Below, piece after piece: positions 7,104 through 34,785 of a stretch of 64,000 nucleotides of DNA. Position 1 is the stretch's first letter. Each line of letters starts with the position of its first letter. The stretch covers positions 16,246-80,245 of the forward strand of contig CALFVX010000001.1 in NCBI GenBank assembly GCA_937928765.1, written 5' to 3'. The notes beneath the pieces were generated by a model. The model was not told the origin of the DNA and made no database searches. It was given only the letters and a program-made list of their open reading frames with translations. The translations under genes were made by a program, and so were the position numbers. This DNA is from an uncultured Endomicrobiia bacterium. GTDB taxonomy: Bacteria; Elusimicrobiota; Endomicrobiia; DTEH01.

Positions 7104-7994
7104 ATGAATTTTAAATATGCAGATTCTTATATATTACAACTTTTAAATAATTTTATTTTTGAACCAGGTGGTGTTGTAGATGGAAAACATCCAGGAAAAC
7201 ACAGAAGTTTTTCTATAGGAAGATCTTTAGAATTTGTTCAACACAGAGAATATACTCCAACAGATGATTTAAAGTATATTGATTGGAAAGTTTATGCAAG
7301 AAGAGATAGGTTTTTTATTAAACAATACTATCAAGAAACAAATCTTGAATCGTGGATTTTTATAGATTGTTCAAGATCAATGTGGTTTCCTGAAAATACT
7401 AAAGAGGTTACAAAATATGAATATGCTAATTATTTAGCTTCGTATTTAAGTTATATATTGTTAAAACAAGGAGATACTGTAGGAATAGCGAAGTTTGATA
7501 ATAAAATAAAATATTTGTTAGAAAAATCTTCTAAAGAAAAATTTTATTATAAAATACTTCAATTTTTAGAAGAAGAAACCGTAGGTCAACAGACAAAGTT
7601 TGTAAATATTATAGATGAAATATTTAAATTTGTTAAAAAAAGGATGTTTTTAATATTTATTTCAGACTTAATTGTAAATAACGAATTAGAAATTGTAAGA
7701 TTATTTAAAAAAATCTCTTCTTATGGAATAAATATTTTAATTTTACACATAATTCATCCTAAAGAATATGATCTTAACTGGATACAAGAAAATAAAATTA
7801 TTTTTGAAGATATTGAATACTTAAATCAGATAACAACTGAAATTTATGAAATAAAAAATTTATATCAAAAAGAATTCAAAAAAATTTTGGAATATTATAA
7901 AAAAGAATTAAATGATAAAAATGTTCATTATTTTGTAATAAATACTAAATTACCTGTTTTAGAAAATCTTAGATTAATAATTTCACAAAAGTGA
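7104..7994 (+). CDS. DUF58 family protein (vWA-like; usual partner of MoxR AAA ATPases)
   Basis: Motif GKHRSFSIGRSLEFVQHREYTPTDDLKYIDWKVYARRDRFFIKQY matches the DUF58 signature. It is the first gene of a long ATGA-coupled operon. Confidence 0.7.
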   Translation: MNFKYADSYILQLLNNFIFEPGGVVDGKHPGKHRSFSIGRSLEFVQHREYTPTDDLKYIDWKVYARRDRFFIKQYYQETNLESWIFIDCSRSMWFPENTKEVTKYEYANYLASYLSYILLKQGDTVGIAKFDNKIKYLLEKSSKEKFYYKILQFLEEETVGQQTKFVNIIDEIFKFVKKRMFLIFISDLIVNNELEIVRLFKKISSYGINILILHIIHPKEYDLNWIQENKIIFEDIEYLNQITTEIYEIKNLYQKEFKKILEYYKKELNDKNVHYFVINTKLPVLENLRLIISQK

Positions 7995-9955
7995 TAAAAT
8001 TTTATAATCAATATATATTATTTTTTCTTCCATTAAGTTTGCTGCCTGTTATATTACACTTTTTATTTTCTAAAAAAACAATAAAAATCAAATTTACATA
8101 TACAAGTCTTATTGAAAAAATATTAATACAAAATTTTTCTAAAAATAAAATTATAGATATTATTATACTTTTTCTTAGGTGTTTAATAATATTTTTGTTG
8201 ATAATATATTTTTCACGGCCTGTGATGTATTTAAATCCTAAACAAAAAAATTTGGATTTAATAATAGCTATTGATACATCCTTTTCTGTAAGACAGAAAG
8301 TTTTAAATACCACAAAATTTGAAATTTTAAAAGAAAAAATAAAAAATCTATTAAAATTTTTAAAGAATAAAAATGTTAAAATAAAATTACTATTGTTTGA
8401 TGAAGATATAAAAGTTTTAAATGAAACATTTGATTTCTCATCTGATGAATTGATTGAAAAAATTAATAATATTAAACCATCATATAAATCTACTAATATT
8501 AAAACTTTGTTCAACTATATATCTTCCTTTTCAGAATTAGATATAAGAAGAAATTATTATAAAATAATAATATTTACAGATTTTGCAGAACATATTTTAA
8601 AAGACAGTTTTGTTAGTTATGATATAAACAAAATATCAAGAGAAATTCTGTTTTGTTATCCAGAAATTGTTTCTACAAATATAGGTATTGAAAGTTTATA
8701 TTTAGAAGATAAAAATGATGATATTGTTATAAATTGTTTATATTTTATTTCTGGGAAAGAAATAAAAAACTTTAATGCGAAATTATTTATTGGTTTTAAA
8801 CATATAGATACTGTTAATGTAGATATTGAAAAGAAAAAATTTGTATTCAATTATCTTTCTAATGAAAAAAATTTTTTTGGTAAGATACTTTTACCAAATG
8901 ACAGTTTAATAGAAGACAATGAATTTTATTTTTTAAATAATATTTCTAATAATGAAGAAGTTTTCTGTTTTATTAAAGAAAGAGAATATTATACAGGATT
9001 TAAAAGTAAAAAATTTTATTTTGAAAAATTAAATATACCTAGAATTAGTTTTAAAATAGTATCTTCAGAAGAAAATTTAAAAAACAAAAATTTAATTATA
9101 GTGGATGAAGAAAAAATTAATGATTTATTAAGTTCTTTTTCTTTTGATAACAAATTAGTAATTTTCCCTAAAGAGAAGATTGATTATGAGGATTACGAGG
9201 AATTTTTAAAAGAAATAGAAATAATAGAATTCCAAAAAGATAACCCAAATCCTTATAGTATAACATTAGCAGAAAGTTCTGAGTTTAATGAATATTTTAA
9301 CAGATTTGATTATGAAAAAATATGGGTTAAAAATAAGTTTTTAATAAATATTGAAAAAAATTCTAGCTGGATAACTTTACTAAAATTTAACGATGGAAAA
9401 CCTGCATTAATTAAAAAAAATGGTATCTTTTTTTTTACTTTTCCTATAGATCAGAGTAATACAAATCTTTTATACAAACCAATTTTTTTAGGTTTATTAA
9501 AATTCATTTTTTTAGAAAAAAAACAAAATTTAAATAAAAATTACTATTTTATTTCAGATAAAATATCTTTATTAGATGATAAGATTATAAAAATTAATAA
9601 TTTTATAACAACAACATATAATATAGAAGATTCTTATAGTTATGAAGATAATAGTATCATTTTTAATATACCTGGGGTATACGAAGTATTTCTTGAAAGT
9701 AAAAATAAACTTTATGTTGCAGTTAATATAAATCCAGAGGAAGGCAAAGTTGATTTAATAGAAAAAAATAGAATTAAAGATTATATTAAAAATATAAATT
9801 TAAGTTTTTTAAATACACAGAAAACTTCTTTTGAAAAAGAACTTTATAATTGGTGTATTGGGAAAGAATATTCACAAAATGTGATGTATTTTATAATTTT
9901 GTTTTTTATAATTGAAACATTATTATCTAGGATTGTTTATAAAAGATTAATATGA
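7991..9955 (+). CDS. BatA-like membrane protein: N-terminal two-TM aerotolerance-regulator-type domain plus vWA (MIDAS IAIDTSFS)
   Basis: N-terminal hydrophobic pair LFFLPLSLLPVILHFLF / ILFLRCLIIFLLIIYF. A D-x-S-x-S MIDAS motif is present. There is a 4-bp overlap with the DUF58 gene. Confidence 0.5.
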   Translation: MIKFYNQYILFFLPLSLLPVILHFLFSKKTIKIKFTYTSLIEKILIQNFSKNKIIDIIILFLRCLIIFLLIIYFSRPVMYLNPKQKNLDLIIAIDTSFSVRQKVLNTTKFEILKEKIKNLLKFLKNKNVKIKLLLFDEDIKVLNETFDFSSDELIEKINNIKPSYKSTNIKTLFNYISSFSELDIRRNYYKIIIFTDFAEHILKDSFVSYDINKISREILFCYPEIVSTNIGIESLYLEDKNDDIVINCLYFISGKEIKNFNAKLFIGFKHIDTVNVDIEKKKFVFNYLSNEKNFFGKILLPNDSLIEDNEFYFLNNISNNEEVFCFIKEREYYTGFKSKKFYFEKLNIPRISFKIVSSEENLKNKNLIIVDEEKINDLLSSFSFDNKLVIFPKEKIDYEDYEEFLKEIEIIEFQKDNPNPYSITLAESSEFNEYFNRFDYEKIWVKNKFLINIEKNSSWITLLKFNDGKPALIKKNGIFFFTFPIDQSNTNLLYKPIFLGLLKFIFLEKKQNLNKNYYFISDKISLLDDKIIKINNFITTTYNIEDSYSYEDNSIIFNIPGVYEVFLESKNKLYVAVNINPEEGKVDLIEKNRIKDYIKNINLSFLNTQKTSFEKELYNWCIGKEYSQNVMYFIILFFIIETLLSRIVYKRLI

Positions 9956-10689
9956 GAAAAATATTCAGTGTTTTTATAATTTTTATATTAGAAATTTGTT
10001 TTTTATATTCTTCAGATAAATTTATTTTTACGCAATTAAAATATAATGGCAATTGGGATCCTTATCCATACGTATATATAGATGTTTTAGAACTAATTTC
10101 CATAACTACAAGTATTAAAGTTGAAAAAGAAAGAAAGGTTGTTGATTTAAATTCAAATAGTTTAAAAGAAGATTTGGCTTCTAAACCATTTGTTATTTTA
10201 TTAGGAGATGACGAGATTAAAATTCCTTATGAAAATATTTTAGTTTTAAGAGATTATGTTATTTGTGGAGGAACAATCTTTATTGAAGACACCTCTGAGT
10301 TATATTATAGCAAGTTTGATACTTCAATCCGAGAAATTTTAAAAATAATGTTTCCTGAACACAGATTAAAAAAAACCACAATAAATTCAGTATTAATGAG
10401 ATCTTTTTATTTGATCCGTAGTGTTAATGGAAGGGTAGCAATGTTTAATTATCTTGAGTACATAGAATATGAGGGCAGACCTGCAGTAATTTATTCAAGA
10501 AATAACATAATTTCTTGTTGGGCAAGGGATAGATTTGGTAAATTTATTCATAGTTGTATTCCTGCTGGAGAACAGCAAAGGTTTAATGCACAAAAATTGT
10601 TTTTAAATATAATAATTTATTCTTTATGTGGAACATATAAACTTGATAAAGTTCATCAGCCTTTTATAGAAGAAAAACTTAAAAGATGA
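9952..10689 (+). CDS. DUF4159-like secreted/periplasmic protein
   Basis: Signal peptide followed by FTQLKYNGNWDPYP, which resembles the DUF4159 core. It sits in the position expected within Bat/MoxR-type clusters. Confidence 0.45.
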   Translation: MRKIFSVFIIFILEICFLYSSDKFIFTQLKYNGNWDPYPYVYIDVLELISITTSIKVEKERKVVDLNSNSLKEDLASKPFVILLGDDEIKIPYENILVLRDYVICGGTIFIEDTSELYYSKFDTSIREILKIMFPEHRLKKTTINSVLMRSFYLIRSVNGRVAMFNYLEYIEYEGRPAVIYSRNNIISCWARDRFGKFIHSCIPAGEQQRFNAQKLFLNIIIYSLCGTYKLDKVHQPFIEEKLKR

Positions 10690-12791
10690 TTACAGTAAAT
10701 TTTAACTTAATAACTTTTTTTATTATTATAACTTTTTTTATTTTGTTATTACTTTTATTTGTAAAATTGAAGAATTTAAAATTAAATTTTTTAAGGTTGT
10801 TAGTAATTTTGTTTTTAGTTTTTTTAACTTTAAATTTTACTTATAAAAAATCAAAAAGTATCTCTGATACAAAGATAGCGTTGTTAATTGATAATTCTTA
10901 TAGTATGAGTTTTAATGGTAGACTAAACAAAATTAAAAATTTTATAGAAAAAAATTATGAAAAACTAAAGAAATATAAACCATCAATATATTTTTTTAAC
11001 GAAGATTTATATCCTTTAAAATACATACAAGAATTAAAAATAGAAAATAAACAAACAAAAATTAATGATGTTTTAGAAAATTATATACTTAAAAATTATG
11101 ACATAATATTTATTTTTTCTGATGGAATAAATTATACTTCTGAATTACCAAGTTTGCAAAAAAATGAGATGACTATTTTTCCTATATGTTTTAAAGAAGA
11201 AAATTTTAAAGATTTGGCTTTATCTAGAATTAGAACAAGTAAAATTGGATTTAAAGATATTGAACATATTATTACAATAAATATAATTTCTTATAAATAC
11301 GAAAGTGTTAAATGTAATATCCAATTGATAGACTTTGAAAACAAAGAAGTTTTGTGTTCTAAAGATTTTATAGTTAAAGAAGGTGAAAATGAAGTTATTT
11401 TGTCTTTTATACCTAAAAAAATTGGCAAAAATAAATATCTTATAAAATTAAAAGAATTAAAGGATGAAATTACATATGAAAATAATAAAAAATATTTTGA
11501 TTTGGAAGTTAAAAAAAATAAGATAAGAGTTTTATACATCTGTGGTCAACCATCTCCAGAATATTTTCATTTAAGAAATTTATTAAAAAACGATCCTTCA
11601 GTAGATTTGGTTTCTTTTGTTATTTTACGTAACCCTGAAAGTGTTGTAGTTGTTTCAGACGATGATTTAGCTTTAATACCTTTTCCAACATATGATATTT
11701 TTGTGAAAGAACTTTTTAATTATGATTTGGTAATTTTTGAAAATTTTACATATAATAAATTTGGCATATATACTCATTATTTAGAAAATATAAAAAAATT
11801 TGTTTTATCAGGTGGTGGATTTATTATGATTGGTGGGGTAAACTCATTTTTTTTGGGAGGCTATAAATTTACTCCTATTGAAGAAATATTACCTGTAGAA
11901 TTGTCAGAAAAAGAAAGATTTTTATATTTGGAATATAGACCTCAAGTAGTCAACTATAATAATAAATTTGTAAAAATTTTATACGATGAGAAAGAAAATA
12001 AAAACTTATGGGAAAATATTCCTAAGTTAGGGAATTATCAAAAGGTTACAACTAAACAAGATGCAAATATTATTTTAAAATATCAAAACGATCCTATAAT
12101 GTGTTATTCTAAAAAAGACAAAGGAAAAGTTTTTGTTTCACTAACAAATACTACTTGGAGATGGAATTTTGGAAATTTATTACAGAAAAGATATGATTAT
12201 AAAAATTTATATAATAAATTTTGGAAAAACATAATTTATTGGTGTGCAGGTGTTGAAGATTTAAAGGATATCTATATTATATGTAGTGATAACTATAATA
12301 TTGATGAAGAAGTTGAAATTAATGTTTTCAGTAATTTAGATGAAAAAGTAAATTCTACTCTGAATGGATTTGTAATATTTCCAGATGGTAATAAAAGAAA
12401 TGTATCTATAAATAAGATAGAAGACAAAAGATATAAGTTTAAGTTTATCCCTAATATGGTAGGGCAATATAAAATTGTTATTATTGCCCAAAAAGCTAAA
12501 GATTTAGATTTTATAAAAGAAGAAAAAAATATTTCGGTTGACTACTTAAATTTTGAAGAAATAGCAAGATTAAAGCCTGACATAGAATATATGTCAAAAC
12601 TTGCAAAAATAAGTGGACAAAAGATTTACTTTTTAGAAGAAGTTAAAATTGAAAGTTTAATAGAAGAAATTAATAAAAATTTAAAAAAGAGGTTTGTTTA
12701 TATAAATGAAATTTATAAAAATCCCATACTAGGGCTTATAATTATATTTTTGTATCTATTAGAAATATATTTTGCAAAGATGAAAAGATGA
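10686..12791 (+). CDS. Membrane-anchored vWA-domain protein with putative class-I glutamine-amidotransferase-like domain
   Basis: N-terminal TM helices; MIDAS-like IALLIDNSYSMSF; later RVLYICGQP...GGGFIMIGGVNSF, which resembles a GATase1/ThuA-like fold. The call is tentative. Confidence 0.45.
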   Translation: MITVNFNLITFFIIITFFILLLLLFVKLKNLKLNFLRLLVILFLVFLTLNFTYKKSKSISDTKIALLIDNSYSMSFNGRLNKIKNFIEKNYEKLKKYKPSIYFFNEDLYPLKYIQELKIENKQTKINDVLENYILKNYDIIFIFSDGINYTSELPSLQKNEMTIFPICFKEENFKDLALSRIRTSKIGFKDIEHIITINIISYKYESVKCNIQLIDFENKEVLCSKDFIVKEGENEVILSFIPKKIGKNKYLIKLKELKDEITYENNKKYFDLEVKKNKIRVLYICGQPSPEYFHLRNLLKNDPSVDLVSFVILRNPESVVVVSDDDLALIPFPTYDIFVKELFNYDLVIFENFTYNKFGIYTHYLENIKKFVLSGGGFIMIGGVNSFFLGGYKFTPIEEILPVELSEKERFLYLEYRPQVVNYNNKFVKILYDEKENKNLWENIPKLGNYQKVTTKQDANIILKYQNDPIMCYSKKDKGKVFVSLTNTTWRWNFGNLLQKRYDYKNLYNKFWKNIIYWCAGVEDLKDIYIICSDNYNIDEEVEINVFSNLDEKVNSTLNGFVIFPDGNKRNVSINKIEDKRYKFKFIPNMVGQYKIVIIAQKAKDLDFIKEEKNISVDYLNFEEIARLKPDIEYMSKLAKISGQKIYFLEEVKIESLIEEINKNLKKRFVYINEIYKNPILGLIIIFLYLLEIYFAKMKR

Positions 12792-14830
12792 AAAAATTAA
12801 TAATTATTTTTTATTTATTTTTTATATTCTTATTTTTGCTTCGCAATACTTCGCCTTTTGTTAACAGCGGAGATAGTGGAGAGTTTATAACTACAAGTTG
12901 TATTTTAGGTATAGCACATAGTCCAGGATATCCTTTATATTCTTTGTTGGGGAAAATTTTTTCATTTATAATACCTTTTGGAAATTATGCGTATAGAATA
13001 AATGTAATGAATATAATTTTTACAATGTTTATTTTAATTCTAATTATTTTGTTTGCGGAAAAAATTTTATTGGATTACAGAAAAGTTTTAATTTATATAT
13101 TCATCTATGGAATATTAATTTTTTCTGAATCATATTTAAAAAATACGATACAGACAGAAGTTTTTGTTCTAAACTCTTTATTTTGTGTTATATTAATTAT
13201 TTTATCATTTTTTGCAATTAATGATGATAATTTTAACTTTTGGTATCTAATATTTTTTTTATTTGGTTTATCATTAGGAAATCATCATACTATAATTTTT
13301 TTATTTCCATCTATATTTTATTTGTTTTTAAAAACAAAAATAAATTTTAAAAAAATAATCTTTTGTATTTTATTTTTTTTGTTAGGTTTTATTGTATATT
13401 TTGTTCTTCCTTTGAGATCGCAAAAAGATCCATATTTTGACTGGGGCGATACTGAAAAATTAGAAAATTTATATAGGGTTATATTAAGAAAAGATTATGG
13501 CACATTTCAACTTACAATTGACAAACCTTTAGAAAGAAATTTTACAAATATTCTTCTTCAAATAAAAAGATTTTTTAAAAAAAGTATAAAAGATTTAACA
13601 ATTTTTGGATTGATATTGGTTATAATAAGTTTTTACTTTTTATTTATAAATAATAAAAAAATATTTGTTTTAATTTTTACATCTTATATTATATCTGGCA
13701 TAGGATTTATGTTATTGTCTAATATGCCATTTGAACCTTTATATGATGGAATATTAGAAAGATTTTATATTTTACCTAACACAATAGCAATACTATCTTG
13801 TTTGTTATGTTTGGTTTATATAAATAAATTTTTGATAACAATTTTTTTATTTGCTATCTTAGGATTTGGATATAATTTCTACAATAACATAAATGTTTGT
13901 AATTATAGAAATTATTATCTAAATTATGACTATGGAATTAACATTTTTAAGATTTTACCTTATAATAGTTTACTTTTTATGGATGGTGGCGATGATACTT
14001 TTTATACTTTAGGATATCTGCAAGCAGTAGAAAGAAGAAGAAAAGATGTTGGTTTATATGATCGTGGTGGCTTGGTATTTAAAAGTATATATGGTAAAGA
14101 TTTTAGAAGTTTATCTAAACAAGAGAAAGAAGTGTTGAGGATTAGTGTTGAAAAAAGTTTTATTAATTCGAGGCCAGTTTTTTATTCTACATTTAATAAA
14201 AATATTTTGCCTGAAGAGAAATTAAAATATGCAGGCGTTTTGTATTTTGTGGAATCAAGTTTTTTAAATAGAAATTATGATAGAGAATTTATTACAGAAA
14301 TTTATTCTTACCGTGGAATATTTGAGAAATATTGTGATTATAGAAGTAATGCATTGGCACCAGTATATCTTTTTATGGAAAGTTTGCAAGAAAAAAATTT
14401 AAAAGAAAAGATTAAATTGTTAAAATATCTTTATTATTTATATCCTGAAATAGATTGGTTAAAAAATAATTGTATAATTGAATTACATAAAATAGGTTTT
14501 GAACTTTTTAATAATGAAAATTTTTTATTAAGTAGAGATGTATATGAGTTAATATTGAAAATAAAAGCAGATGATGTTTATGCTTTATTAAACTTAGGAG
14601 TAAATTATGAAAAGGTTGGAAAATTCATTTCTGCTGAGGAGTGTTATAAGAAAGCAATGAGTATTCAACCATCAAATGTTCGTGCTCATTATAACCTAGG
14701 AAGTTTATATTGGAGACAAAATAAATGGCAAGAGTCATTGTTGATGTTTGAAAAAGTTTTAGATTTAGAACCACAAAATGAAGAAGTAAAAAAATATATA
14801 GAGTATTTAAAACTAAAAATTAAAAGTTGA
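12788..14830 (+). CDS. DUF2723 / TMTC-like GT-C fold glycosyltransferase (protein O-mannosyltransferase-like) with C-terminal TPR repeats
   Basis: N-terminal motif NSGDSGEFITTSCILGIAHSPGYPLYSLLGKIF (DUF2723/TMEM260 family), more than 10 TM helices, and a C-terminal TPR module (LNLGVNYEKVGKF...AHYNLGSLYWRQNKWQES). Confidence 0.65.
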   Translation: MKKLIIIFYLFFIFLFLLRNTSPFVNSGDSGEFITTSCILGIAHSPGYPLYSLLGKIFSFIIPFGNYAYRINVMNIIFTMFILILIILFAEKILLDYRKVLIYIFIYGILIFSESYLKNTIQTEVFVLNSLFCVILIILSFFAINDDNFNFWYLIFFLFGLSLGNHHTIIFLFPSIFYLFLKTKINFKKIIFCILFFLLGFIVYFVLPLRSQKDPYFDWGDTEKLENLYRVILRKDYGTFQLTIDKPLERNFTNILLQIKRFFKKSIKDLTIFGLILVIISFYFLFINNKKIFVLIFTSYIISGIGFMLLSNMPFEPLYDGILERFYILPNTIAILSCLLCLVYINKFLITIFLFAILGFGYNFYNNINVCNYRNYYLNYDYGINIFKILPYNSLLFMDGGDDTFYTLGYLQAVERRRKDVGLYDRGGLVFKSIYGKDFRSLSKQEKEVLRISVEKSFINSRPVFYSTFNKNILPEEKLKYAGVLYFVESSFLNRNYDREFITEIYSYRGIFEKYCDYRSNALAPVYLFMESLQEKNLKEKIKLLKYLYYLYPEIDWLKNNCIIELHKIGFELFNNENFLLSRDVYELILKIKADDVYALLNLGVNYEKVGKFISAEECYKKAMSIQPSNVRAHYNLGSLYWRQNKWQESLLMFEKVLDLEPQNEEVKKYIEYLKLKIKS

Positions 14831-16998: not shown

Positions 16999-17016
16999 AT
17001 ATAGAGGAGTAATATT

Positions 17017-18135: not shown

Positions 18136-21100
18136 GAATAAAAGATTATTTTGAAAAAATTGTAATATTAAGAATTCTGTTTTTAGTTTCTAGATTTGTT
18201 ATAACAGCAGTTAATGTGATAATTGGATTCTTTGTATTAAGTATGTTAATAGATAAAATTTTACCGTTGCCTATTATAATTTTTCACATTTATTGGTTTA
18301 TTATTTTAGGAGTGATTTTTATATTTTTTATTAATCTTATCGTAAGAGTTGTAGAACTTAAAGTAAAACCTTATTATTATATTATGGAATCTATAAACAA
18401 ATATTTAAGGTTAGAAAATAAAGATGCTGTAATTAATGCTTTTTTATTAGAACAAAATTTAGTCTATGATAAAAATTTGAATTTTTCTTCTGAGTTAGCT
18501 AGCGAATTTATTAAAAATGTAAAAGAAAAATTGTTAGAAATAAAACCAAAAAAGATAGTTGAATTTGAAAAAATTTTTAAAGTCTTACCACTTAATTTTA
18601 TACTAATTTCTTTAGCTTTTATACTTTACATATACCCTCCATATGTAATCAAAGAAGGTGTATATAAAATTCTATTTACAAGAAATCCGGAAATACTAGG
18701 TATTTTTATTATGCCTAAAAATATAAAAATTCCCTATAAAGAAAGTTGTGAAATAAAAGTTATTATAGATAAAAATTATGAACTTTATATTCCGGCTTTA
18801 TTTGTAAAAACAAAAAATTTTGATAAGTTTGTGAGAGTAAATTTTGATTCTCAAGAAAATTTTTTAAATAGGAAAATATATAAATATAAAATAAATTCTA
18901 TAGAAGAAAAAATATTTTATAAAATAAAATTTCGTGGAGTAAAAACTAAAACTTTTGTTATAGATCCGATTCTATATCCTGAGATTTCTAAAATAAAAAT
19001 TTTTGTATCTCCTCCAGAATATACAGGAATAGAACCTTATGAAATAAATAGTTTTAATGCAACAAAATATTTTTATAACACTAACATAAAATTTACAGGT
19101 ACAACAAATAAAAAGGTAGAAAATGTAAATCTTTTGTTTAGCGATGGTGAGAAAATAATACTTTCATTAGATAAAAATAAAACAAATTTTTATGGAGAAT
19201 TTAAAATAACTAAAGACACAGAATTATGGTTTGAAATTACTGATACAGAAAATATGAACAACTTTGAAAAATTAAGATATAAAATAAATATTTTAGAAGA
19301 TAAATATCCTGAAATTAAACTTATTTCTCCTCAAGATGAAATTGTAGTTGAGCCTAATGTTAAAATACCACTAGTTTTTTCTTGTAGAGATGATATTTCT
19401 TTAAAAAAGGTTGAGTTGGTATATTATATTAACAACGATGTGAAAAATAAAATAAAAATTAAAGAATATCTTCAAAAAACAAAAGAAGATTTAGAAGAAT
19501 ATATTTTTGATCTAAGTAAATTAAAAGTTAATTTTGGAGATGTTATAAGTTATTATTTTATCGTATATGATAACAATCCTTATAAAAGTCAATATAATCT
19601 CTCTTCTGTACAAAAGATAGAAATTTTTAGCTATGAAAAACAACATAACAATATACAAAAACAAATAGAGGAATTTAATAAAAAATCTCTGGATTTACTT
19701 TCTAAAGAGATTGAATTAAAAGAATTTTTTTTAACCAAAACTACTACAACAGCAAATTTTAATGATGATTTACAAAAATTTATTATTTCTCATTTAAAAA
19801 CAAAAGAAGATTTTGATAATTTGGAAAAAATAATTTCTTCTATTGTAGAAAATATGTCAAAAGATCCATATACTTCGTTTGATACATATATAGAATTTAA
19901 AAATATAGAATCTTTAATTAAAGAGTTAAAAGAAGAAATTTTTCCAAAACTTTTAGATGAGTTAAGAGATAAAAATTTGTCTAAAGCAGAAGAATCTCAG
20001 CAACAAATTGTAGATAGTTTAGAAAGAATTACAGGATTATCTAATGAAATTGTTAAAAAACAAAATATGCATAATATAGCAGAAATTGCTAGAGATATAA
20101 AAAGTTTTAGTGAAGATATTTTCGAAATTTTGAAAAATTCAGATAAAAATATTTCTGAAGAAGAAAAAAATAAGATAAAAAATTTGCTTAAAGAAATTGA
20201 AGATAAATTAAAAAAAATAAATGATTTGATCAAAAATATGCCACAGGATTTGCCAATTGAGTTTGTTAACCAAAGAGATATACAAAATTTAGATTTATTT
20301 TCACCAACAGATTTAATACAAAAAATTGTCTCTGCTATAGAACAAAACAATCTTTCTTTGGCAACAATGTTAGCAAAAAATTTGTTGTCCCAGTTAGATT
20401 ATATAACTAAAAAGATTTCTCAGCCAAGCTATGAAATAGCTTTATCTGGGACATCATATTTAGATAAGGAGCTAAAGGAGTTGATTAGTAATTTGGATGA
20501 AATTATTTTTGAAGAAGATGAGATATATAAAAATACAAAAAAGATTGAAAACTATAGAATAACAGAAGTTTTAAAGCATCAAGAAGACAAAAAGGACATA
20601 ATAAAAAATCATATTGAGGAAATAAAAAATGAGATTAATAAAGTATTAAATACAGATGAATTTAATCAATTTGTAAATAAAAACATTTATAAACAAAATT
20701 CTTTAAAAGCTATAAATAATTTAAATGCGGTAATTTTAGAAACAGAAAAAAATATATTTTTAAAGACAGCACAATTAATAGAAGATAGCAAAAAAATATG
20801 GATGAATAACTTTGATTTAATTAATGATTTAGATATAGAAATATATAGAGTTTTAATAGAAAAAACAAAAATTGTAAAAGAAAAAATTGATGAATTACAT
20901 AAAATTGTAAATTTAGAACCGGAGATAAAATATAAAAGTGAAATATTAAAAAAAAATGAAGAGTTGATATATAAGCAAGAATTTGTAATTAATAAAACAA
21001 AAAATTTTAGAGAAAAATTAAAATCTTTAGGTAAAAAGAGCTTTATTATTTCTTACAAAGATATACTAATCACTAACCAGTCTATAAATTCAATGAATAA

Positions 21101-21440
21101 TTCAAAAGAATTTTTAGAAATAAAAAACTTTTCTTTGGCACTACAAGAACAAAATTCTGCAATAAATCTATTGTTAAAATTAAGGAATAAGTTTAATGAT
21201 AAAAAATCTATGATGCAACAAATATTAAATTCTATTGGTAAACCTATAGCGGAAAAATTGCAATATAAATCTTCTGCTGGTAAAATTGGTGTTATTGAAG
21301 GAAGAGTGTTGTTACCTTCTGTAAAAGATTATGAACCACCAAAAGAGTTAAGAGAAGAGATAATAAAGTCGTTAAGCGAAAAATATCCTAAAGAGTTAGA
21401 AAATATATTACAAAAATATTATCAAGAAATTTTAAGATGA
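18132..21440 (+). CDS. Large (1102 aa) membrane-anchored coiled-coil protein of unknown function
   Basis: N-terminal 3-4 TM helices followed by a long K/E/I/N-rich helical region. It is ATGA-coupled both upstream and downstream. Confidence 0.45.
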   Translation: MRIKDYFEKIVILRILFLVSRFVITAVNVIIGFFVLSMLIDKILPLPIIIFHIYWFIILGVIFIFFINLIVRVVELKVKPYYYIMESINKYLRLENKDAVINAFLLEQNLVYDKNLNFSSELASEFIKNVKEKLLEIKPKKIVEFEKIFKVLPLNFILISLAFILYIYPPYVIKEGVYKILFTRNPEILGIFIMPKNIKIPYKESCEIKVIIDKNYELYIPALFVKTKNFDKFVRVNFDSQENFLNRKIYKYKINSIEEKIFYKIKFRGVKTKTFVIDPILYPEISKIKIFVSPPEYTGIEPYEINSFNATKYFYNTNIKFTGTTNKKVENVNLLFSDGEKIILSLDKNKTNFYGEFKITKDTELWFEITDTENMNNFEKLRYKINILEDKYPEIKLISPQDEIVVEPNVKIPLVFSCRDDISLKKVELVYYINNDVKNKIKIKEYLQKTKEDLEEYIFDLSKLKVNFGDVISYYFIVYDNNPYKSQYNLSSVQKIEIFSYEKQHNNIQKQIEEFNKKSLDLLSKEIELKEFFLTKTTTTANFNDDLQKFIISHLKTKEDFDNLEKIISSIVENMSKDPYTSFDTYIEFKNIESLIKELKEEIFPKLLDELRDKNLSKAEESQQQIVDSLERITGLSNEIVKKQNMHNIAEIARDIKSFSEDIFEILKNSDKNISEEEKNKIKNLLKEIEDKLKKINDLIKNMPQDLPIEFVNQRDIQNLDLFSPTDLIQKIVSAIEQNNLSLATMLAKNLLSQLDYITKKISQPSYEIALSGTSYLDKELKELISNLDEIIFEEDEIYKNTKKIENYRITEVLKHQEDKKDIIKNHIEEIKNEINKVLNTDEFNQFVNKNIYKQNSLKAINNLNAVILETEKNIFLKTAQLIEDSKKIWMNNFDLINDLDIEIYRVLIEKTKIVKEKIDELHKIVNLEPEIKYKSEILKKNEELIYKQEFVINKTKNFREKLKSLGKKSFIISYKDILITNQSINSMNNSKEFLEIKNFSLALQEQNSAINLLLKLRNKFNDKKSMMQQILNSIGKPIAEKLQYKSSAGKIGVIEGRVLLPSVKDYEPPKELREEIIKSLSEKYPKELENILQKYYQEILR

Positions 21441-23023
21441 AAAAAAACATATATTTTGTGGCTTTAATTTTGTTAAACTCTATTTCTTTATTTTTAGCAG
21501 ATGTTAATCATCAAAATAGCAAGATAAATTTTATTTTAAATTATTTAGAAGCAGGCAATTTCAAACAAGCAGAAGAAATTATAAATACTGAGAGAGATTA
21601 TGATTTAAAAGGATATCTGTATAGTATATATCATTTATATAGCGGAGATAATGTTTTAGCCGAAGAATATGTTAAAAGAGTACAGAATAATTACAAAGAT
21701 GACTTCTTTTCTAATTATATTGTAAACATTAATAAAATTATAAACGATTATGAAGTTTATGAATCTCAACATTTTAAAGTTTTTCTTAAAGGTAAAGATA
21801 CTATACTAAAAGATTTTATTTTAGAAAAGTTAGAAAAAATTTATGAGATATATGGAAGGATATTTAATTATTATCCAGAAGATAAAGTTAGAGTAGAAGT
21901 TTATAATACAAAACAGGAATTCTATTTTGCTACAACTTTAAAAGAAGACTTAGTTAAAAATACAGGGGTAGTTGGTATTTGTAAGTTTAACAAAATTATG
22001 ATTATCTCACCAGAAAATTTGCCGTTAGGATACAGGTGGATTGACACATTAGCACATGAATACATACATTTTATTCTTAATAGAAAAACATCATATAAGT
22101 ATCCTTTATATCTACACGAAGCAACTGCAAGATATTTTGATACTATATATAGATCTTCTTTTGTGGTATGTTTTACAGCTGGTAATTTGAAATTATTAGT
22201 TGAAGCTAAAAAAAATAATAAACTTATAAATTTTGATGAGATGAAAGGATCTTTAATATATTTTGAGGATATAGATAAAATAGAATTAGCATTTGTAGAA
22301 CTTGCTAGTTTTGTAGAATTTTTAGTTAAAAATTTTGGTATTGAAAAATTTGTTAAATTTATAGAACAATATGATTCTCAGAATGAAAAAAAATTATATA
22401 AAGAAATTTTTGATAAAGATTATAAAGAGATCATATCTTTATGGATGCAAACAATAGATGAAAAAGAAGAATATATAAAACTATATCCTGGTGCTGTTTC
22501 AGATTTAAAAATTAAAACCGCAACAGATGAAAATAGTTTGATAGGCCTTGATTTAGAAAGTTATATTAGATTAGGAGATAAATTTTTAAGTTTGAATAAT
22601 TATAAATCTGCATTGTTTCAATATAATAAGGCAAAAGAGATTGAAGCCTATAATCCATTGGTTTTAAGTAGAATTGGGAAAATATATTTATTAACAAAAA
22701 AATATGATTTATGTGAGGAAGTATTAAAAGAATGTATATTGTCCAACCCAAATTTTGTTACTTCCTATGAGATTTTGTTAAAATGTTATTATGAAAAAGG
22801 TGATTATGAAAAAGTTTTAGAGATTTTTAATTCTGTTGTTGAGATTAATCCGTTTAATTATGAAATAAGAAAAATAGTTGCGGAAGTATATGCAAGTTTA
22901 GGTAAAATTAAAGAAGCATTGCAACAATATAAAATAGTAAAGATTTTACAACCAAATGATATAGAAATAGAAAATATTATTAATTCTTTAGAAGAATATT
23001 TAAAGATAAAATATAGAAGATGA
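21437..23023 (+). CDS. Putative secreted zinc metallopeptidase (HExxH) with C-terminal TPR repeats
   Basis: Signal peptide, HEYIH motif in the sequence DTLAHEYIHFIL, and a C-terminal TPR block. Confidence 0.45.
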   Translation: MKKNIYFVALILLNSISLFLADVNHQNSKINFILNYLEAGNFKQAEEIINTERDYDLKGYLYSIYHLYSGDNVLAEEYVKRVQNNYKDDFFSNYIVNINKIINDYEVYESQHFKVFLKGKDTILKDFILEKLEKIYEIYGRIFNYYPEDKVRVEVYNTKQEFYFATTLKEDLVKNTGVVGICKFNKIMIISPENLPLGYRWIDTLAHEYIHFILNRKTSYKYPLYLHEATARYFDTIYRSSFVVCFTAGNLKLLVEAKKNNKLINFDEMKGSLIYFEDIDKIELAFVELASFVEFLVKNFGIEKFVKFIEQYDSQNEKKLYKEIFDKDYKEIISLWMQTIDEKEEYIKLYPGAVSDLKIKTATDENSLIGLDLESYIRLGDKFLSLNNYKSALFQYNKAKEIEAYNPLVLSRIGKIYLLTKKYDLCEEVLKECILSNPNFVTSYEILLKCYYEKGDYEKVLEIFNSVVEINPFNYEIRKIVAEVYASLGKIKEALQQYKIVKILQPNDIEIENIINSLEEYLKIKYRR

Positions 23024-24516
23024 ACAGAGATATTTATTTAAAAATAAGGAAAGAACAGTTTAAAAAAATTAATAATTTAGTTAAAGAAAATTTTTTTGAA
23101 AAAAATCTTAGTAAGAAAATAATAGGTGAAATTTGGTATAGACAAGAGTTTGAAAAAAGAAATCTGACTACTATAGATGGTAAAAAAATTTTTGTTATTT
23201 CTCCTGGAGAAAGAAGTAGTTTTATTCATTTCGACTTTACTAAAGCAAAGATTTTGGTTGATGGCAAAGAATATGTTTTAGATATAGAAGTCCATAAGAA
23301 TCGTTCTGATTGGTTTAAACATAAACACGATTTTAGTTTAAAAGATGATGAAGGAATTTTACATGTTTTTTATAATTTTGACACTAAGAGATTAATTGAA
23401 GGCAGAAAGATTTTTGAGATATGTTTAAAAGGCTTTATTAATTTTGAAAATTTATATTTATTTGAAGATTTGAAAGAAATAAGATTTAAAGAAGCAGGTT
23501 TGTGTGGTTACAATATGTCAAACAAGGATTATGAATATTTGGAGGGTTTAATAATTTCTGCAGCAGAAGCAAGAGTATTTTTAAAATCTGAAAAATTTTT
23601 TAAATGGTTTATAAGTAAACAACAAGAAGAACAACTACTTTATGAACAGATTTGTGAAGTTTATGGTTTTGCTAATAATAGAGATAATTTTTTATTATTG
23701 TCAAATTTAGTACCAATAAAAAAAATTAGAAAATTAATCAGAAAGTATCCTAAAAGTCAGCATATTGAAATAATAGAAAGTATTTTTTTTGGCGTGAGTG
23801 GTTTATATTATGATTTAAAAGATAAATGTATAGTTGACGACTATGTATTAAAAATATACAATTTTTGGGAAAACAAGTTTAATAAATTTTTTAGCAAAAA
23901 ACTATTAAGAGATAAATGGAGATTTTATAAAACCCGGCCAGTAAATTATCCTTATAGAAGAATCTCTGCTTTAAGTAGGACATTAGCAAATTTTTTAGAA
24001 TTTAAAATTAACAATTTTTTAACTAATCTATTAGAAAATTTTTCTGTAGAAGAAATTTTTTATCATTTAAATAATATTTTTTACCAACCTGCTGAAGGGT
24101 ATTTTTCAAAAAAATGTAGTTTTACAAGTAAAGAATTTAAAAAACCAGTAGTTTTGTTTGGTGAAGAAAAAGTTTCTGTTTTAATAATTAATGTTATTAT
24201 ACCATATTTTATTTACTATTCGAGAAAGAAAAAAGATGAAAAACTTTATTCAAAAATTTTAAAGATATTTGAAAATATAAAATTAGCGGAAAAGAATAAT
24301 ATAGTTATTAATTTTTCAAAAAATTTGATAAAAAGTAGAGAACATAGAAAATATTTTTTATCAAAACCAATTTTTGTTCAAGGGTTGTTACAAATTTATA
24401 AAGATTTTTGTGAATCATTTTATAATAGATGCAGTGATTGTTATCTACCAAAAATTGTAAAACAGGATTATATTATTAATGAAGACAAGAATAAATTTGA
24501 TTTTATAGAATTATGA
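23020..24516 (+). CDS. DUF2851-like protein
   Basis: 498 aa, coupled within the operon, with no catalytic motif recognised. The family call is from overall resemblance and is low confidence. Confidence 0.35.
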   Translation: MNRDIYLKIRKEQFKKINNLVKENFFEKNLSKKIIGEIWYRQEFEKRNLTTIDGKKIFVISPGERSSFIHFDFTKAKILVDGKEYVLDIEVHKNRSDWFKHKHDFSLKDDEGILHVFYNFDTKRLIEGRKIFEICLKGFINFENLYLFEDLKEIRFKEAGLCGYNMSNKDYEYLEGLIISAAEARVFLKSEKFFKWFISKQQEEQLLYEQICEVYGFANNRDNFLLLSNLVPIKKIRKLIRKYPKSQHIEIIESIFFGVSGLYYDLKDKCIVDDYVLKIYNFWENKFNKFFSKKLLRDKWRFYKTRPVNYPYRRISALSRTLANFLEFKINNFLTNLLENFSVEEIFYHLNNIFYQPAEGYFSKKCSFTSKEFKKPVVLFGEEKVSVLIINVIIPYFIYYSRKKKDEKLYSKILKIFENIKLAEKNNIVINFSKNLIKSREHRKYFLSKPIFVQGLLQIYKDFCESFYNRCSDCYLPKIVKQDYIINEDKNKFDFIEL

Positions 24517-25619
24517 AGAACATATTATCAAAACAAGTTTTAAAATTGTTAAAAAATAACTATTTATATAAGTATGTTTATGTTTTCTTACAATTTCTGG
24601 TTAACAATAACTACAACTTTTATTTTGTAGGAGGTAGTTTAAGAGATGTTATTCTTTCAATTTTGTATAACAAAAAATTTTTGCCACAAGATATAGATAT
24701 TGTAGTTGAGACAAAAGATTATTTTGGTTTAGTGGAAAAAATTAAAGATTTATACTTCAAAAACAACAACATAGAATTTATAGCACATCCAAAATTTCTT
24801 ACTTTCAGTATCATTATATATGAAAAGAATAAAAAATTAAAAATAGATTTATCATTGCCAAGAAAAGAACAATACAAATTTTCAGGTGCGTTGCCAGAAG
24901 TAGATTTTGGAAGCATACAAGAAGATTTGTTTAGGAGAGATTTCACAGTAAATTCTATAGCATTAAGATATGATAATGAAAAAAAAGAATATTATTTTTT
25001 TGACCCGTATTATGGAATTAGAGATTTATTTGATAAAAAAATAAGGATTTTACATAATAAAAGTTTTATAGATGATCCTACACGAATAATTAGAGCTATA
25101 AGGTTTGCTGCAGATTTGAATTTTAAAATTGAAAAAAATACAGAAAAATTGTTAAAGGAAGCAGTAAATAGTGGTGTATTAAAAAATATTTCAAAAGTAA
25201 GATTGCATAATGAATTCCTATATATTTTAAAAAAAGGTAGAAACTTATCTCAAATTAGTAAGAACTTTTTAAAATATAATGTTGTAAGTTACTACAAAGA
25301 TATAGAAGATATAATAGGTGTTTTTGTTAAACAAAGTAAAAAAATTGAATTGCAAGAAATAAGGAATTATGATATAAAATTTTACATTAGACTATTTTAT
25401 CTTATAAAATCCACTTTAATAGAGATTGATATATTTGATAAGGAATACTTAAAGAAAGTTAAAGATATAATGGTTAGATTATATATTAATAAAAAAGATA
25501 GAGAAGATATTTATTATGCAGTAAAAACTTTTATTGGGAAAAACAAGGTTTTAAACCATGAAAAATTACCTTTATGGATAGAATACTACTCTAAAATTTT
25601 TGATAATCCTCTTTATTAG
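24513..25619 (+). CDS. Poly(A) polymerase / CCA-adding-enzyme family nucleotidyltransferase (head domain)
   Basis: Pol-beta NTase motif FYFVGGSLRDVIL...DIDIVV plus the RIIRAIRFAADLNF helical region typical of PF01743. Confidence 0.55.
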   Translation: MKNILSKQVLKLLKNNYLYKYVYVFLQFLVNNNYNFYFVGGSLRDVILSILYNKKFLPQDIDIVVETKDYFGLVEKIKDLYFKNNNIEFIAHPKFLTFSIIIYEKNKKLKIDLSLPRKEQYKFSGALPEVDFGSIQEDLFRRDFTVNSIALRYDNEKKEYYFFDPYYGIRDLFDKKIRILHNKSFIDDPTRIIRAIRFAADLNFKIEKNTEKLLKEAVNSGVLKNISKVRLHNEFLYILKKGRNLSQISKNFLKYNVVSYYKDIEDIIGVFVKQSKKIELQEIRNYDIKFYIRLFYLIKSTLIEIDIFDKEYLKKVKDIMVRLYINKKDREDIYYAVKTFIGKNKVLNHEKLPLWIEYYSKIFDNPLY

Positions 25620-28003: not shown

Positions 28004-28014
28004 TTTTTAGGAGG

Positions 28015-34766: not shown

Positions 34767-34785
34767 TTAATAGGAGGACAAAATT

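What the first reader, a model, noticed from the sequence alone, without database searches (positions are those of the whole stretch)
7104..25619. 18.5-kb, 11-gene translationally coupled envelope operon combining a MoxR-less Bat/vWA module with GT-C and GT28 glycosyltransferases
Every junction from 7994 to 24516 except one is a 4-bp ATGA overlap. The gene order starts DUF58, BatA-like two-TM + vWA, DUF4159, vWA-membrane protein. This mirrors Bacteroides aerotolerance or MoxR-vWA clusters, but the usual MoxR AAA+ ATPase is missing, with pyrE upstream instead. The vWA module is welded to two TMTC-like GT-C enzymes, an MGDG-synthase-type GT, a 1102-aa membrane coiled-coil protein, a HExxH-TPR protease, DUF2851 and a poly(A)-polymerase-family NTase. 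I do not recognise this linkage as known. It suggests a dedicated surface protein or lipid glycosylation and assembly pathway.
Basis: partly seen in the sequence, partly recalled or inferred. Interest (0 to 1): 0.6.

Follow-up and report, generated by a model that had tools for sequence, protein, structure and literature searches.

The report
Elusimicrobial vWA envelope operon with glycosyltransferases
This is a real, tightly packed 11-gene operon from an uncultured Endomicrobiia bacterium: a widespread but uncharacterised MoxR/Bat-type cell-envelope module that, in the phylum Elusimicrobiota, carries built-in TMEM260-like protein glycosyltransferases and, in this lineage, has lost its neighbouring MoxR ATPase gene.

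Summary
There are eleven co-directional ORFs at 7104-25619. Nine of ten junctions are 4-bp overlaps (7 ATGA, 1 GTGA, 1 TTGA), against 5 of 34 elsewhere in the window. All the Pfam calls are supported, and no MoxR gene lies in the 64 kb.

Six genes form a module conserved across phyla: DUF58, BatA/vWA, DUF4159, a vWA+GATase1-like membrane protein, a DUF4175-like protein and an HExxH-TPR protease. Elsewhere this module includes an adjacent MoxR gene. The "coiled-coil protein" and the "protease" are therefore core parts, not additions.

Between the GATase1-like and DUF4175 genes, only Elusimicrobiota loci carry an ancestral array of TMEM260-like GT-C enzymes. Three positional paralogue groups exist, and the catalytic Asp/Arg/Asp residues are invariant. 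This array occurs both with and without MoxR.

The window's clade lacks operon-linked MoxR and has gained a GT28 diacylglycerol glycosyltransferase. DUF2851 is a recent insertion, and the NTase is a tRNA nucleotidyltransferase-family passenger.

The best reading is a periplasm-facing vWA scaffold with a quality-control protease, coupled to dedicated protein O-glycosylation. The function is inferred, not shown. Whether MoxR lies elsewhere in the genome could not be tested. I rate it a new variant of a known kind, of moderate interest.

The parts
7104..7994 (+). DUF58 protein (296 aa). No TM segment or signal peptide, so predicted cytoplasmic. vWA-like, with a DxSxS MIDAS motif (DCSRS, residues 88-92).
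   Evidence: Pfam DUF58 1.9e-29. The MIDAS motif is kept in all MoxR-less and MoxR-containing relatives. Hydropathy.
7991..9955 (+). BatA-type membrane protein (654 aa; GTG start). N-terminal double-TM anchor, vWA domain with MIDAS motif DTSFS (94-98), and a C-terminal TM segment. The vWA domain is predicted to be periplasmic.
   Evidence: Pfam BatA 1.4e-9 and VWA_2 4e-11. TIGR02226 two_anch. The profile hits BatB 3ibs at 1e-9 and 4jdu at 2e-8. TM segments. Topology is by analogy with BB0173 (PMC5700661).
9952..10689 (+). DUF4159 protein (245 aa) with an N-terminal signal-like segment. Class-I glutamine-amidotransferase-like (GIFT/ThuA-like) fold, with no conserved nucleophile Cys.
10686..12791 (+). 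Membrane protein (701 aa). Two N-terminal TM segments, a vWA-like domain with DNSYS (69-73), a GATase1-like domain (about 335-530), a possible Ig/filamin-like domain (about 533-618), and a C-terminal TM segment.
   Evidence: Pfam GATase1_like 6.5e-13. The profile against PDB gives 2gk3 1e-16, 3rht 3e-13, VWA2 5a8j 1e-4 and filamin 0.03 (weak). D69, S71 and S73 are invariant.
12788..14830 (+). TMEM260-like GT-C glycosyltransferase with C-terminal TPR (680 aa); positional paralogue group 1.
   Evidence: Pfam TMEM260-like 1.3e-25. Human TMEM260 9rql 8e-39 over residues 13-432. D29, R233 and D402 align with TMEM260 D52, R264 and D441.
14827..16998 (+). TMEM260-like GT-C glycosyltransferase with C-terminal TPR (723 aa from the TTG at 14827, or 720 aa from the ATG at 14836); positional paralogue group 3.
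   Evidence: Pfam 9.6e-26. 9rql 1.4e-25. Catalytic equivalents are conserved, and the NJ tree places it in group 3.
17017..18135 (+). GT28 (GT-B) diacylglycerol glycosyltransferase-like enzyme (372 aa), cytoplasmic. The only gene in the operon with its own SD-like site.
   Evidence: Pfam MGDG_synth 2.4e-22 and Glyco_tran_28_C. Processive DAG beta-glucosyltransferase 9wde 4e-28 and MGD1 4wyi 1e-20. NCBIfam diglucosyl-DAG synthase 1e-43, but below its cut-off. Junction.
18132..21440 (+). DUF4175-like protein (1102 aa). Three N-terminal TM segments, a conserved middle region of unresolved fold (about 200-500), and a long helical, coiled-coil-like C-terminal half.
   Evidence: Pfam DUF4175 3e-5, below cut-off. 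Homologues in L018 and L003 carry DUF4175. Only helical-bundle hits in PDB. TM segments.
21437..23023 (+). Secreted gluzincin-type metalloprotease (Peptidase_MA_2) with a C-terminal TPR domain (528 aa).
   Evidence: Pfam Peptidase_MA_2 plus TPR. H207, E208, H211 and E228 are invariant in 34 homologues down to 21% identity. AF2 pLDDT 91. Signal-like N-terminus.
23020..24516 (+). DUF2851 protein (498 aa). A recent insertion into the operon, probably a passenger.
   Evidence: Pfam 8e-55. Present in L096 but absent at this position in L095 and L097. Nine distant homologues have no module genes nearby.
24513..25619 (+). Class II nucleotidyltransferase of the tRNA CCA/A-adding family (368 aa). A housekeeping passenger at the 3' end. 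It lacks about 55 C-terminal residues relative to the L096 orthologue.
   Evidence: Pfam PolyA_pol 1e-16. Aquifex A-adding enzyme 1vfg 2e-38 and Thermotoga 3h37 5e-35. NCBIfam matches are below their cut-offs. Truncation. It follows PepMA in L095, L096 and L097 but not in L003.

Best explanation
The locus is the Endomicrobiia form of a widely conserved, experimentally uncharacterised envelope module of the MoxR(MRP)/Bat kind.

Shown by sequence and comparison:
- The core has six proteins. They are a cytoplasmic DUF58 vWA protein, two inner-membrane proteins anchored by an N-terminal double-TM hairpin and carrying MIDAS-bearing vWA domains (one also has a GATase1-like domain), a secreted DUF4159 protein of non-catalytic GATase1/GIFT-like fold, a DUF4175-like membrane protein with a long helical ectodomain, and an HExxH...E metalloprotease fused to TPR.
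- In other phyla this core sits next to a MoxR AAA+ gene.
- In Elusimicrobiota an ancestral array of TMEM260-type GT-C enzymes is inserted between the GATase1-like gene and the DUF4175 gene. Each enzyme has its catalytic residues intact and its own TPR domain.
- In the window's clade the MoxR gene is no longer in the operon and a GT28 diacylglycerol glycosyltransferase gene has been added.
- DUF2851 and the tRNA nucleotidyltransferase-family gene are passengers.

Inferred:
- The vWA/MIDAS, GATase1-like and DUF4175 proteins form an inner-membrane-anchored, periplasm-facing scaffold.
- The TPR-bearing GT-Cs capture extended exported polypeptides and O-glycosylate Ser/Thr from a polyprenyl-phosphate sugar. 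The acceptors would be either the scaffold's own ectodomains or its client surface proteins.
- The TPR-protease trims or quality-controls the same clients.
- The GT28 enzyme supplies a membrane glycolipid.
- DUF58 links the complex to a MoxR ATPase encoded elsewhere, or works without one.
For: Operon structure.

Core module in other phyla, with MoxR:
- L004, L035, L062 and L070 have DUF4175-like, PepMA, MoxR, DUF58, BatA, DUF4159, GATase1-like in that order.
- L010, L020, L059 and L085 have MoxR, DUF58, BatA, DUF4159, GATase1-like.

GT-C array:
- Among 80 loci from many phyla, it sits directly next to the GATase1-like gene only in Elusimicrobiota loci: the window, L002, L006-L009, L011, L018, L095-L097, L100 and L101.
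- These loci range from 22 to 59% GC, and their GATase1-like proteins are about 30% identical, while the flanking genes differ.
- An NJ tree gives three positional paralogue groups. Each holds MoxR-containing lineages (L008/L011) and the window clade.
- The equivalents of D52, R264 and D441 are invariant in all 23 TMEM260-like sequences.
- L011 has a UDPGP-like sugar-nucleotide gene inside the array.

Other components:
- HExxH...E is invariant in the protease.
- MIDAS motifs are conserved.
- The vWA domain of BatA-type BB0173 is periplasmic (PMC5700661), and the TM layout here matches it.
- TMEM260's TPR domain recruits extended acceptor peptides (bioRxiv 10.64898/2026.03.17.711096).
- An MRP-type MoxR operon affects envelope integrity in Rhizobium, as cited in PMC3893208.
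Against: - No experiment exists for any member of this module or for any bacterial TMEM260 homologue. Both the acceptors and the sugar donor are unknown.
- No polyprenyl-phosphate sugar synthase (GT2) gene is in the operon or the window.
- The TMEM260 IPT-type sequon is absent from all window proteins.
- L003 keeps the module with two GT28 genes but no GT-C. L004 and the non-Elusimicrobia loci have no glycosyltransferase. The module therefore does not need the GT-Cs.
- Passengers (DUF2851, NTase) are welded in with the same ATGA overlaps, so overlap alone does not prove a shared function.
- The topology is predicted from hydropathy in a Lys-rich proteome.
Confidence: 0.5

Rival explanations
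1. Neighbours by compaction. The glycosyltransferase genes are functionally independent of the vWA module. They sit in one overlapping gene string only because these small, AT-rich, strand-biased genomes pack unrelated genes together, and the order has persisted by inertia.
For: - DUF2851 and a tRNA nucleotidyltransferase-family gene are joined by the same ATGA overlaps yet are clearly not conserved partners.
- In L006, pyrE itself overlaps DUF58 by 4 bp.
- Almost every gene in the first 58 kb is on the + strand.
- The module exists without glycosyltransferases in other phyla, and without GT-Cs in L003.
Against: - The GT-C array keeps the same slot, between the GATase1-like and DUF4175 genes, in lineages from 22 to 59% GC and about 30% protein identity, although their flanking genes differ completely.
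- The paralogue order is conserved.
- The array interrupts the module rather than abutting it.
Confidence: 0.25
2. Glycolipid or lipoglycan assembly line. The GT28 enzyme makes a glycosyl-diacylglycerol anchor at the inner face. The GT-C enzymes extend or decorate a lipid-linked or polysaccharide acceptor in the periplasm, as ArnT- or YfhO-type GT-Cs do. The vWA, DUF4159 and DUF4175 proteins scaffold its export. On this reading proteins are not the acceptors.
For: - GT28 DAG-glycosyltransferase similarity.
- PMT_2-type GT-Cs lacking the TMEM260 Arg/Asp equivalents accompany the array in L002, L006, L008, L018 and L101.
- L003 keeps two GT28 genes in the module.
- That GT-C enzymes with lipid or teichoic-acid acceptors exist is from my own knowledge.
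Against: - All TMEM260-like paralogues keep the luminal catalytic Asp (D441 equivalent) and a TPR domain. In TMEM260 these serve peptide acceptors.
- GT28 is absent from the MoxR-containing Elusimicrobiota loci that carry the GT-C array (L008, L011, L018, L100). The two kinds of glycosyltransferase are therefore separable.
Confidence: 0.15
3. Aerotolerance or oxidative-stress device, as the 'Bat' name implies. The glycosyltransferases would be incidental.
For: BatA_N domain and BatB-like vWA similarity. The B. fragilis Bat operon was defined by an aerotolerance phenotype, as cited in PMC5700661.
Against: - The operon has no redox domain.
- BatD- and BatE-type domains are absent.
- The abstract of the Leptospira study notes that no specific function for Bat proteins had been demonstrated experimentally (PMC3557215, listed).
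- The Rhizobium phenotype is envelope integrity.
Confidence: 0.05

Closest known systems
Bat/MoxR(MRP) vWA operons (Bacteroides fragilis BatI, Borrelia BB0170-BB0176, Leptospira bat, Rhizobium leguminosarum RL3499-RL3502)
   Same: - A DUF58 gene is followed by a BatA-type protein with the N-terminal double-TM anchor and a MIDAS vWA domain.
- BB0173 is an inner-membrane protein with a periplasmic vWA domain.
- The associated phenotypes are envelope or stress related.
   Different: - There is no adjacent MoxR here.
- There are no BatD or BatE domains.
- There are extra conserved partners: DUF4159, a GATase1-like protein, DUF4175 and a Peptidase_MA_2-TPR protease.
- Glycosyltransferases are embedded in the operon.
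The seven-gene neighbourhood DUF4175-like, Peptidase_MA_2/TPR, MoxR, DUF58, BatA/vWA, DUF4159, GATase1-like, seen here in Desulfobacterota- and Myxococcota-type MAGs (L004, L035, L062, L070)
   Same: All six non-MoxR genes are present and homologous.
   Different: - The gene order is cyclically permuted, with DUF4175 and PepMA at the 3' end.
- MoxR is absent.
- Two GT-C genes and one GT28 gene are inserted at the permutation junction.
- I found no paper describing this neighbourhood. 'DUF4159' occurs in a single paper, a Pfam database article.
Human TMEM260 protein O-mannosyltransferase (PDB 9rql/9rqm/9rqn)
   Same: - GT-C transmembrane core, E 8e-39 and 1e-25.
- The D52, R264 and D441 equivalents are conserved.
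- C-terminal TPR domain.
   Different: - These are bacterial, with multiple paralogues in an operon.
- The donor would be a bacterial polyprenyl-phosphate sugar of unknown identity.
- No IPT-type sequon occurs in the neighbouring proteins.
- The TMEM260 literature mentions bacterial homologues only as 'distant homologs' (PMC10214176).
Processive diacylglycerol beta-glucosyltransferase (UgtP/YpfP type; PDB 9wde) and plant MGD1
   Same: MGDG_synth plus GT28 C-terminal domains. PDB matches of 4e-28 and 1e-20.
   Different: It scores far below the NCBIfam equivalog cut-off (149 against 500 bits), so its sugar and acceptor specificity are unknown. It is embedded in a vWA module.
BepA-type periplasmic TPR-metalloproteases (my own knowledge; an analogy only)
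   Same: An exported zinc metalloprotease fused to a C-terminal TPR domain.
   Different: It belongs to a different peptidase family (Peptidase_MA_2, not M48). No link to outer-membrane protein assembly was tested.

Membership tests
MoxR(MRP)-DUF58-vWA (Bat-like) operon | MoxR AAA+ ATPase gene (AAA_3) adjacent to the DUF58 and vWA genes | tested here: not met
   No AAA_3 hit in any window ORF, and no tblastn or HMM hit with Elusimicrobia MoxR. pyrE lies upstream. Six related loci also lack it (L002, L003, L006, L007, L058, L101). Twelve have it directly upstream of DUF58 (L004, L008, L010, L011, L018, L020, L035, L059, L062, L070, L085, L100).
MoxR(MRP)-DUF58-vWA (Bat-like) operon | DUF58 protein | tested here: met
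   PF01882 1.9e-29, above cut-off. The DxSxS motif is conserved.
MoxR(MRP)-DUF58-vWA (Bat-like) operon | BatA-type protein: N-terminal double-TM domain plus a vWA domain with MIDAS | tested here: met
   PF07584 38.7 bits (cut-off 25.9), VWA_2 43.9 bits (27). TIGR02226. BatB 3ibs 1e-9. D94, S96 and S98 are invariant.
Bacteroides BatI operon in the strict sense | BatD (oxygen-tolerance domain) and BatE (SH3) proteins, and a stand-alone TPR BatC | tested here: not met
   No such Pfam domains occur in any of the 11 proteins. TPR occurs only fused to the GT-Cs and the protease.
DUF4159 / GATase1-like / DUF4175 / Peptidase_MA_2-TPR extended module | All four accessory genes present next to DUF58 and BatA | tested here: met
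   PF13709 90 bits and PF07090 49 bits, both above cut-off. DUF4175 and Peptidase_MA_2 are below cut-off in the window protein itself, but homology to L003, L004 and L018 members that carry the domains is shown by tblastn and HMM.
TMEM260-type GT-C protein O-glycosyltransferase | PF11028 domain and similarity to the TMEM260 GT-C core | tested here: met
   90.6 and 91.1 bits (cut-off 24.2). 9rql 8e-39 and 1.4e-25.
TMEM260-type GT-C protein O-glycosyltransferase | Catalytic and donor-binding residues (D52, R264, D441 in the human enzyme) and a luminal TPR domain | tested here: met
   D29, R233 and D402 in gene 5, with equivalents in gene 6, are invariant in 23 Elusimicrobiota sequences. Residue roles are taken from bioRxiv 10.64898/2026.03.17.711096. 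TPR.
TMEM260-type GT-C protein O-glycosyltransferase | Transfers mannose from a polyprenyl-phosphate-mannose to Ser/Thr of a protein | not testable with these tools
   This needs biochemistry or glycoproteomics. The IPT-type sequon is absent from window proteins.
GT28 diacylglycerol glycosyltransferase (MGDG synthase / UgtP) | MGDG_synth N-terminal domain plus GT28 C-terminal domain | tested here: met
   80.3 bits (cut-off 25) and 30.7 bits (22). 9wde 4e-28.
GT28 diacylglycerol glycosyltransferase (MGDG synthase / UgtP) | Equivalog-level match to diglucosyl-DAG synthase | tested here: not met
   NF010135 149.5 bits against a cut-off of 500.
Class II tRNA nucleotidyltransferase / poly(A) polymerase | PolyA_pol head domain, and equivalog-level assignment to CCA-adding, A-adding or PcnB | tested here: inconclusive
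   PF01743 61.7 bits, above cut-off. Best PDB match is the Aquifex A-adding enzyme at 2e-38. All NCBIfam equivalogs are below their cut-offs, and the C-terminus is about 55 residues shorter than the orthologue's.
DUF2851 | PF11013 domain | tested here: met
   186.7 bits (cut-off 25), covering 4-374 of 375 profile positions.

The most novel reading that the evidence does not exclude
The MoxR/Bat-type vWA module would be, at least in Elusimicrobiota, an envelope glycoprotein biogenesis machine. TMEM260-type O-glycosyltransferases would work in a complex with GATase1/GIFT-like subunits (DUF4159 and the GATase1-like membrane protein), much as the eukaryotic OST pairs its GT-C subunit with the GIFT-like OST48. 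They would glycosylate the module's own ectodomains or its client surface proteins. This would give the first function for bacterial TMEM260 homologues and the first mechanistic handle on the long-enigmatic Bat/MoxR-vWA operons. It would also imply that the MoxR ATPase is dispensable in cis.
Probability: 0.12. Interest if true: 0.75.

Novelty: new variant of a known kind. Interest (0 to 1): 0.42.

Why it matters
Bat/MoxR-vWA operons are widespread. They have been tied to envelope integrity, stress tolerance and virulence, yet they have no known mechanism. Bacterial homologues of the human disease gene TMEM260 have no known substrate.

A phylum-wide, positionally conserved fusion of the two systems gives a concrete and testable pairing: do these GT-Cs glycosylate the vWA, GATase1-like or DUF4175 ectodomains, or their clients?

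The recurrent MoxR-less versions, in which DUF58 keeps an intact MIDAS motif, also raise a question. Is the ATPase supplied in trans, or is it dispensable?

The organism is an uncultured Endomicrobiia bacterium, so any direct pay-off depends on finding the same arrangement in a cultivable Elusimicrobiota strain or on heterologous reconstitution.

Tried and rejected
1. Locating MoxR elsewhere in the genome.
 - A homologue search with an Endomicrobiales MoxR returned 8000 hits, of which the best 120 are listed.
 - None lies on the 1,101,983-bp contig of GCA_017880035.1 or the 160,640-bp contig of the window.
 - The list stops at 64% identity, so this is inconclusive.
 - The 160-kb NCBI contig could not be fetched.
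 - P0101, on a contig of similar length, turned out to be another lineage with MoxR and the GT-C array.
2. A metagenome scan with the DUF2851 protein found only homologues of about 25% identity with no module genes nearby. This is useful only as evidence that DUF2851 is a passenger.
3. A search for the TMEM260 IPT-type sequon (GPxxGG and related patterns) in all window ORFs found nothing.
4. A Foldseek search with the protease model was swamped by TPR hits and said nothing about the catalytic domain.
5. PDB profile searches for the DUF4175-like protein gave only designed helical bundles.
7. The 58-64 kb region (GC 38%, no listed ORFs) was considered as rRNA or CRISPR. That was rejected: it has no Rfam hit and no repeat array, and it is one giant ORF running off the window.
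8. Horizontal acquisition of the operon was considered. Its GC (18-24%) matches the AT-rich host and synteny is conserved in relatives, so this was rejected.

Full report
**Organism and setting.** The window is very AT-rich, with the operon at 18-24% GC. Homologues of its proteins are annotated Endomicrobiia, Endomicrobia or Elusimicrobiota MAGs. Almost all genes are on the + strand.

**Observation.**
- Nine of the ten junctions between 7994 and 24516 are 4-bp overlaps: seven ATGA, one GTGA (7991) and one TTGA (14827). For the last one, a gene caller on an identical contig preferred the ATG at 14836.
- The only gap (18 nt, before 17017) is also the only internal junction with a GAGGAG Shine-Dalgarno-like site.
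- Outside the operon, 5 of 34 same-strand junctions are 4-bp overlaps, so 9 of 10 is far above background (binomial P 3e-7).
- No + strand terminator-like site lies inside the operon.
- The 318-nt gap after 25619 holds a c-di-GMP-I-GGC riboswitch. It is conserved at the same place in two relatives and marks the start of the next transcription unit.

**Domain content.**
- Pfam supports DUF58, BatA_N+vWA, DUF4159, two TMEM260-like (DUF2723)+TPR proteins, MGDG_synth+GT28_C, Peptidase_MA_2+TPR, DUF2851 and PolyA_pol.
- Gene 4 is a GATase1_like protein in Pfam. A five-sequence profile also finds an N-terminal vWA-like domain (VWA2 5a8j, E 1e-4) around an invariant DxSxS motif, and a weak filamin-like stretch.
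- The 1102-aa protein is DUF4175-like. It scores below cut-off itself, but its homologues in L003 and L018 carry the domain.
- Hydropathy shows that DUF58, the GT28 enzyme, DUF2851 and the NTase have no convincing membrane-spanning segment. The two vWA membrane proteins share a layout of 2 TM, a large domain, then 1 TM. DUF4159 and the protease have signal-like N-termini. The DUF4175-like protein has three N-terminal TM segments.
- By analogy with BB0173, whose vWA domain faces the periplasm (PMC5700661), the large domains are probably periplasmic. This is an inference.

**MoxR.** No AAA_3 protein is encoded in the 64 kb (tblastn and HMM).

**Comparative genomics.** I used a genome scan with a GATase1-like alignment, exact-protein look-ups, and tblastn and HMM annotation. 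Three layers emerge.

1. *DUF4159 and GATase1-like pair.* Many Myxococcota, Nitrospinota and other loci carry only this gene pair.

2. *Seven-gene module with MoxR.* L004, L035, L062 and L070 carry DUF4175-like, Peptidase_MA_2/TPR, MoxR, DUF58, BatA/vWA, DUF4159, GATase1-like in that order.

3. *Elusimicrobiota order with glycosyltransferases.*
 - The order here is (MoxR), DUF58, BatA, DUF4159, GATase1-like, [glycosyltransferases], DUF4175, protease.
 - MoxR-containing examples with two to four TMEM260-like genes, in some loci plus a PMT_2 gene, are L008, L011, L018 and L100. L011 also has a UDPGP-like gene in the array.
 - MoxR-less examples are the window clade (L002/L095, L006, L007, L096, L097), L101 and L003. 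All of these also carry MGDG_synth.
 - L003 and L101 share the upstream genes SMC, WecG and Metallophos. That shared context suggests a single ancestral loss of MoxR from the operon and a single gain of GT28.
 - L058, a deltaproteobacterial MAG, is an independent MoxR-less case.
 - GT-C genes directly adjoining the module were found only in Elusimicrobiota loci.

**The GT-C array is ancestral and looks active.**
- An NJ tree of 25 sequences gives three groups that follow gene position. Each group contains L011 and/or L008 (MoxR-containing, 49-59% GC) together with the window clade. The window and L096 have lost group 2.
- Both window enzymes match human TMEM260, at 8e-39 and 1.4e-25.
- The residues that the TMEM260 cryo-EM study assigns to donor alignment (D52), phosphate binding (R264) and catalysis (D441) are invariant in all 23 TMEM260-like sequences.
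- In TMEM260 the TPR domain recruits extended acceptor peptides. These bacterial enzymes have TPR domains too.
- The IPT-type sequon is absent from window proteins, so the acceptors are unknown.

**Other components.**
- The protease keeps H207, E208, H211 and E228 in 34 homologues down to 21% identity.
- DUF58 keeps its DxSxS motif in all MoxR-less loci, so it remains under constraint.
- The GT28 protein is closest to a processive DAG beta-glucosyltransferase (4e-28) but scores below the equivalog cut-offs.
- The NTase is closest to the Aquifex A-adding and Thermotoga CCA-adding enzymes. It follows the protease in L095-L097 but not in L003.
- DUF2851 is found only in the window and L096 at this position, and is unlinked to the module in distant homologues.

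**Interpretation.**
- With high confidence (about 0.85), this is a lineage-specific variant of a conserved MoxR/Bat-type envelope module, with embedded glycosyltransferases and two passengers.
- With lower confidence, the module is a periplasm-facing scaffold with a quality-control protease, and the TMEM260-like enzymes O-glycosylate the scaffold itself or its clients.
- The main rival is that the glycosyltransferases are neighbours by compaction. The passengers support that rival. The conserved slot and paralogue order across deep divergence count against it.
- A lipoglycan-assembly reading and an aerotolerance reading are less likely.

**Literature.** 'DUF4159' appears in one paper only, a Pfam database article. 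'DUF2723' appears only in the TMEM260 discovery paper, which mentions 'distant homologs in bacteria'. I found no description of this linkage.

**Verdict.** The finding is real. Its sense of novelty is partly misplaced, because the core module is conserved across phyla. The glycosyltransferase linkage is a new variant and of moderate interest. Whether MoxR lies elsewhere in the genome could not be tested with the tools and caps available.

Noticed in passing
window 25850-25929 (+), and the genes at 25938-37983: A c-di-GMP-I-GGC riboswitch (RF03167, 66 bits) sits upstream of a five-gene string:
- a 153-aa protein with a T9SS-type C-terminal sorting domain;
- a TPR protein;
- a 635-aa FliG_M/FliG_C+TPR fusion;
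- a 1602-aa protein with no Pfam match except one C-terminal TPR repeat below Pfam's cut-off;
- a 1065-aa protein with no Pfam match.

The last three genes have strong AGGAGG sites. AT-skew is 0.3-0.39 over 30-38 kb. The gene string is syntenic in L095, L096 and L097, and the riboswitch was found in L096 and L097. A FliG-like protein under c-di-GMP control looks worth its own study.
   Followed up: partly
window 58158-64000 (+): A giant ORF of more than 1947 aa runs off the window end. It has no Pfam hit and is rich in G, S, T, N and W. Its GC is 38-39%, against 18-29% in the rest of the window. The ORF listing omits it because it is open-ended. It is probably a surface protein, and so a conceivable glycosylation substrate.
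   Followed up: partly
L101 5248-6999: A MoxR-less relative has the flagellar stator genes FlbD, MotA and MotB directly upstream of DUF58. Together with the FliG-like gene in the window, this suggests that motility-related genes exist in this Endomicrobiia group.
   Followed up: no
window 56618-57490: A ParE-family toxin gene (56618-56869) is followed by a minimal nucleotidyltransferase (NTP_transf_2) and HEPN pair (56874-57203, 57200-57490), a toxin-antitoxin-like cluster.
   Followed up: no
window 50729-54086: The hydrogenase maturation genes HycI, HypA and HypF lie in a row.
   Followed up: no
window 3549-4484 (-): This is the only sizeable minus-strand gene in the first 58 kb (311 aa). It has no Pfam hit and is conserved at the same position in L002.
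   Followed up: no
window 24513-25619: The tRNA nucleotidyltransferase-family gene is about 55 residues shorter at its C-terminus than the orthologue in L096 (368 against 419 aa). This could be a truncation or a lineage variant.
   Followed up: partly
L003 (whole locus) compared with the window: The DUF4159 proteins are 54-55% identical between a 64.5% GC locus (L003) and this window, whose operon region is 18-24% GC. That is a very wide compositional range for related Elusimicrobiota.
   Followed up: no
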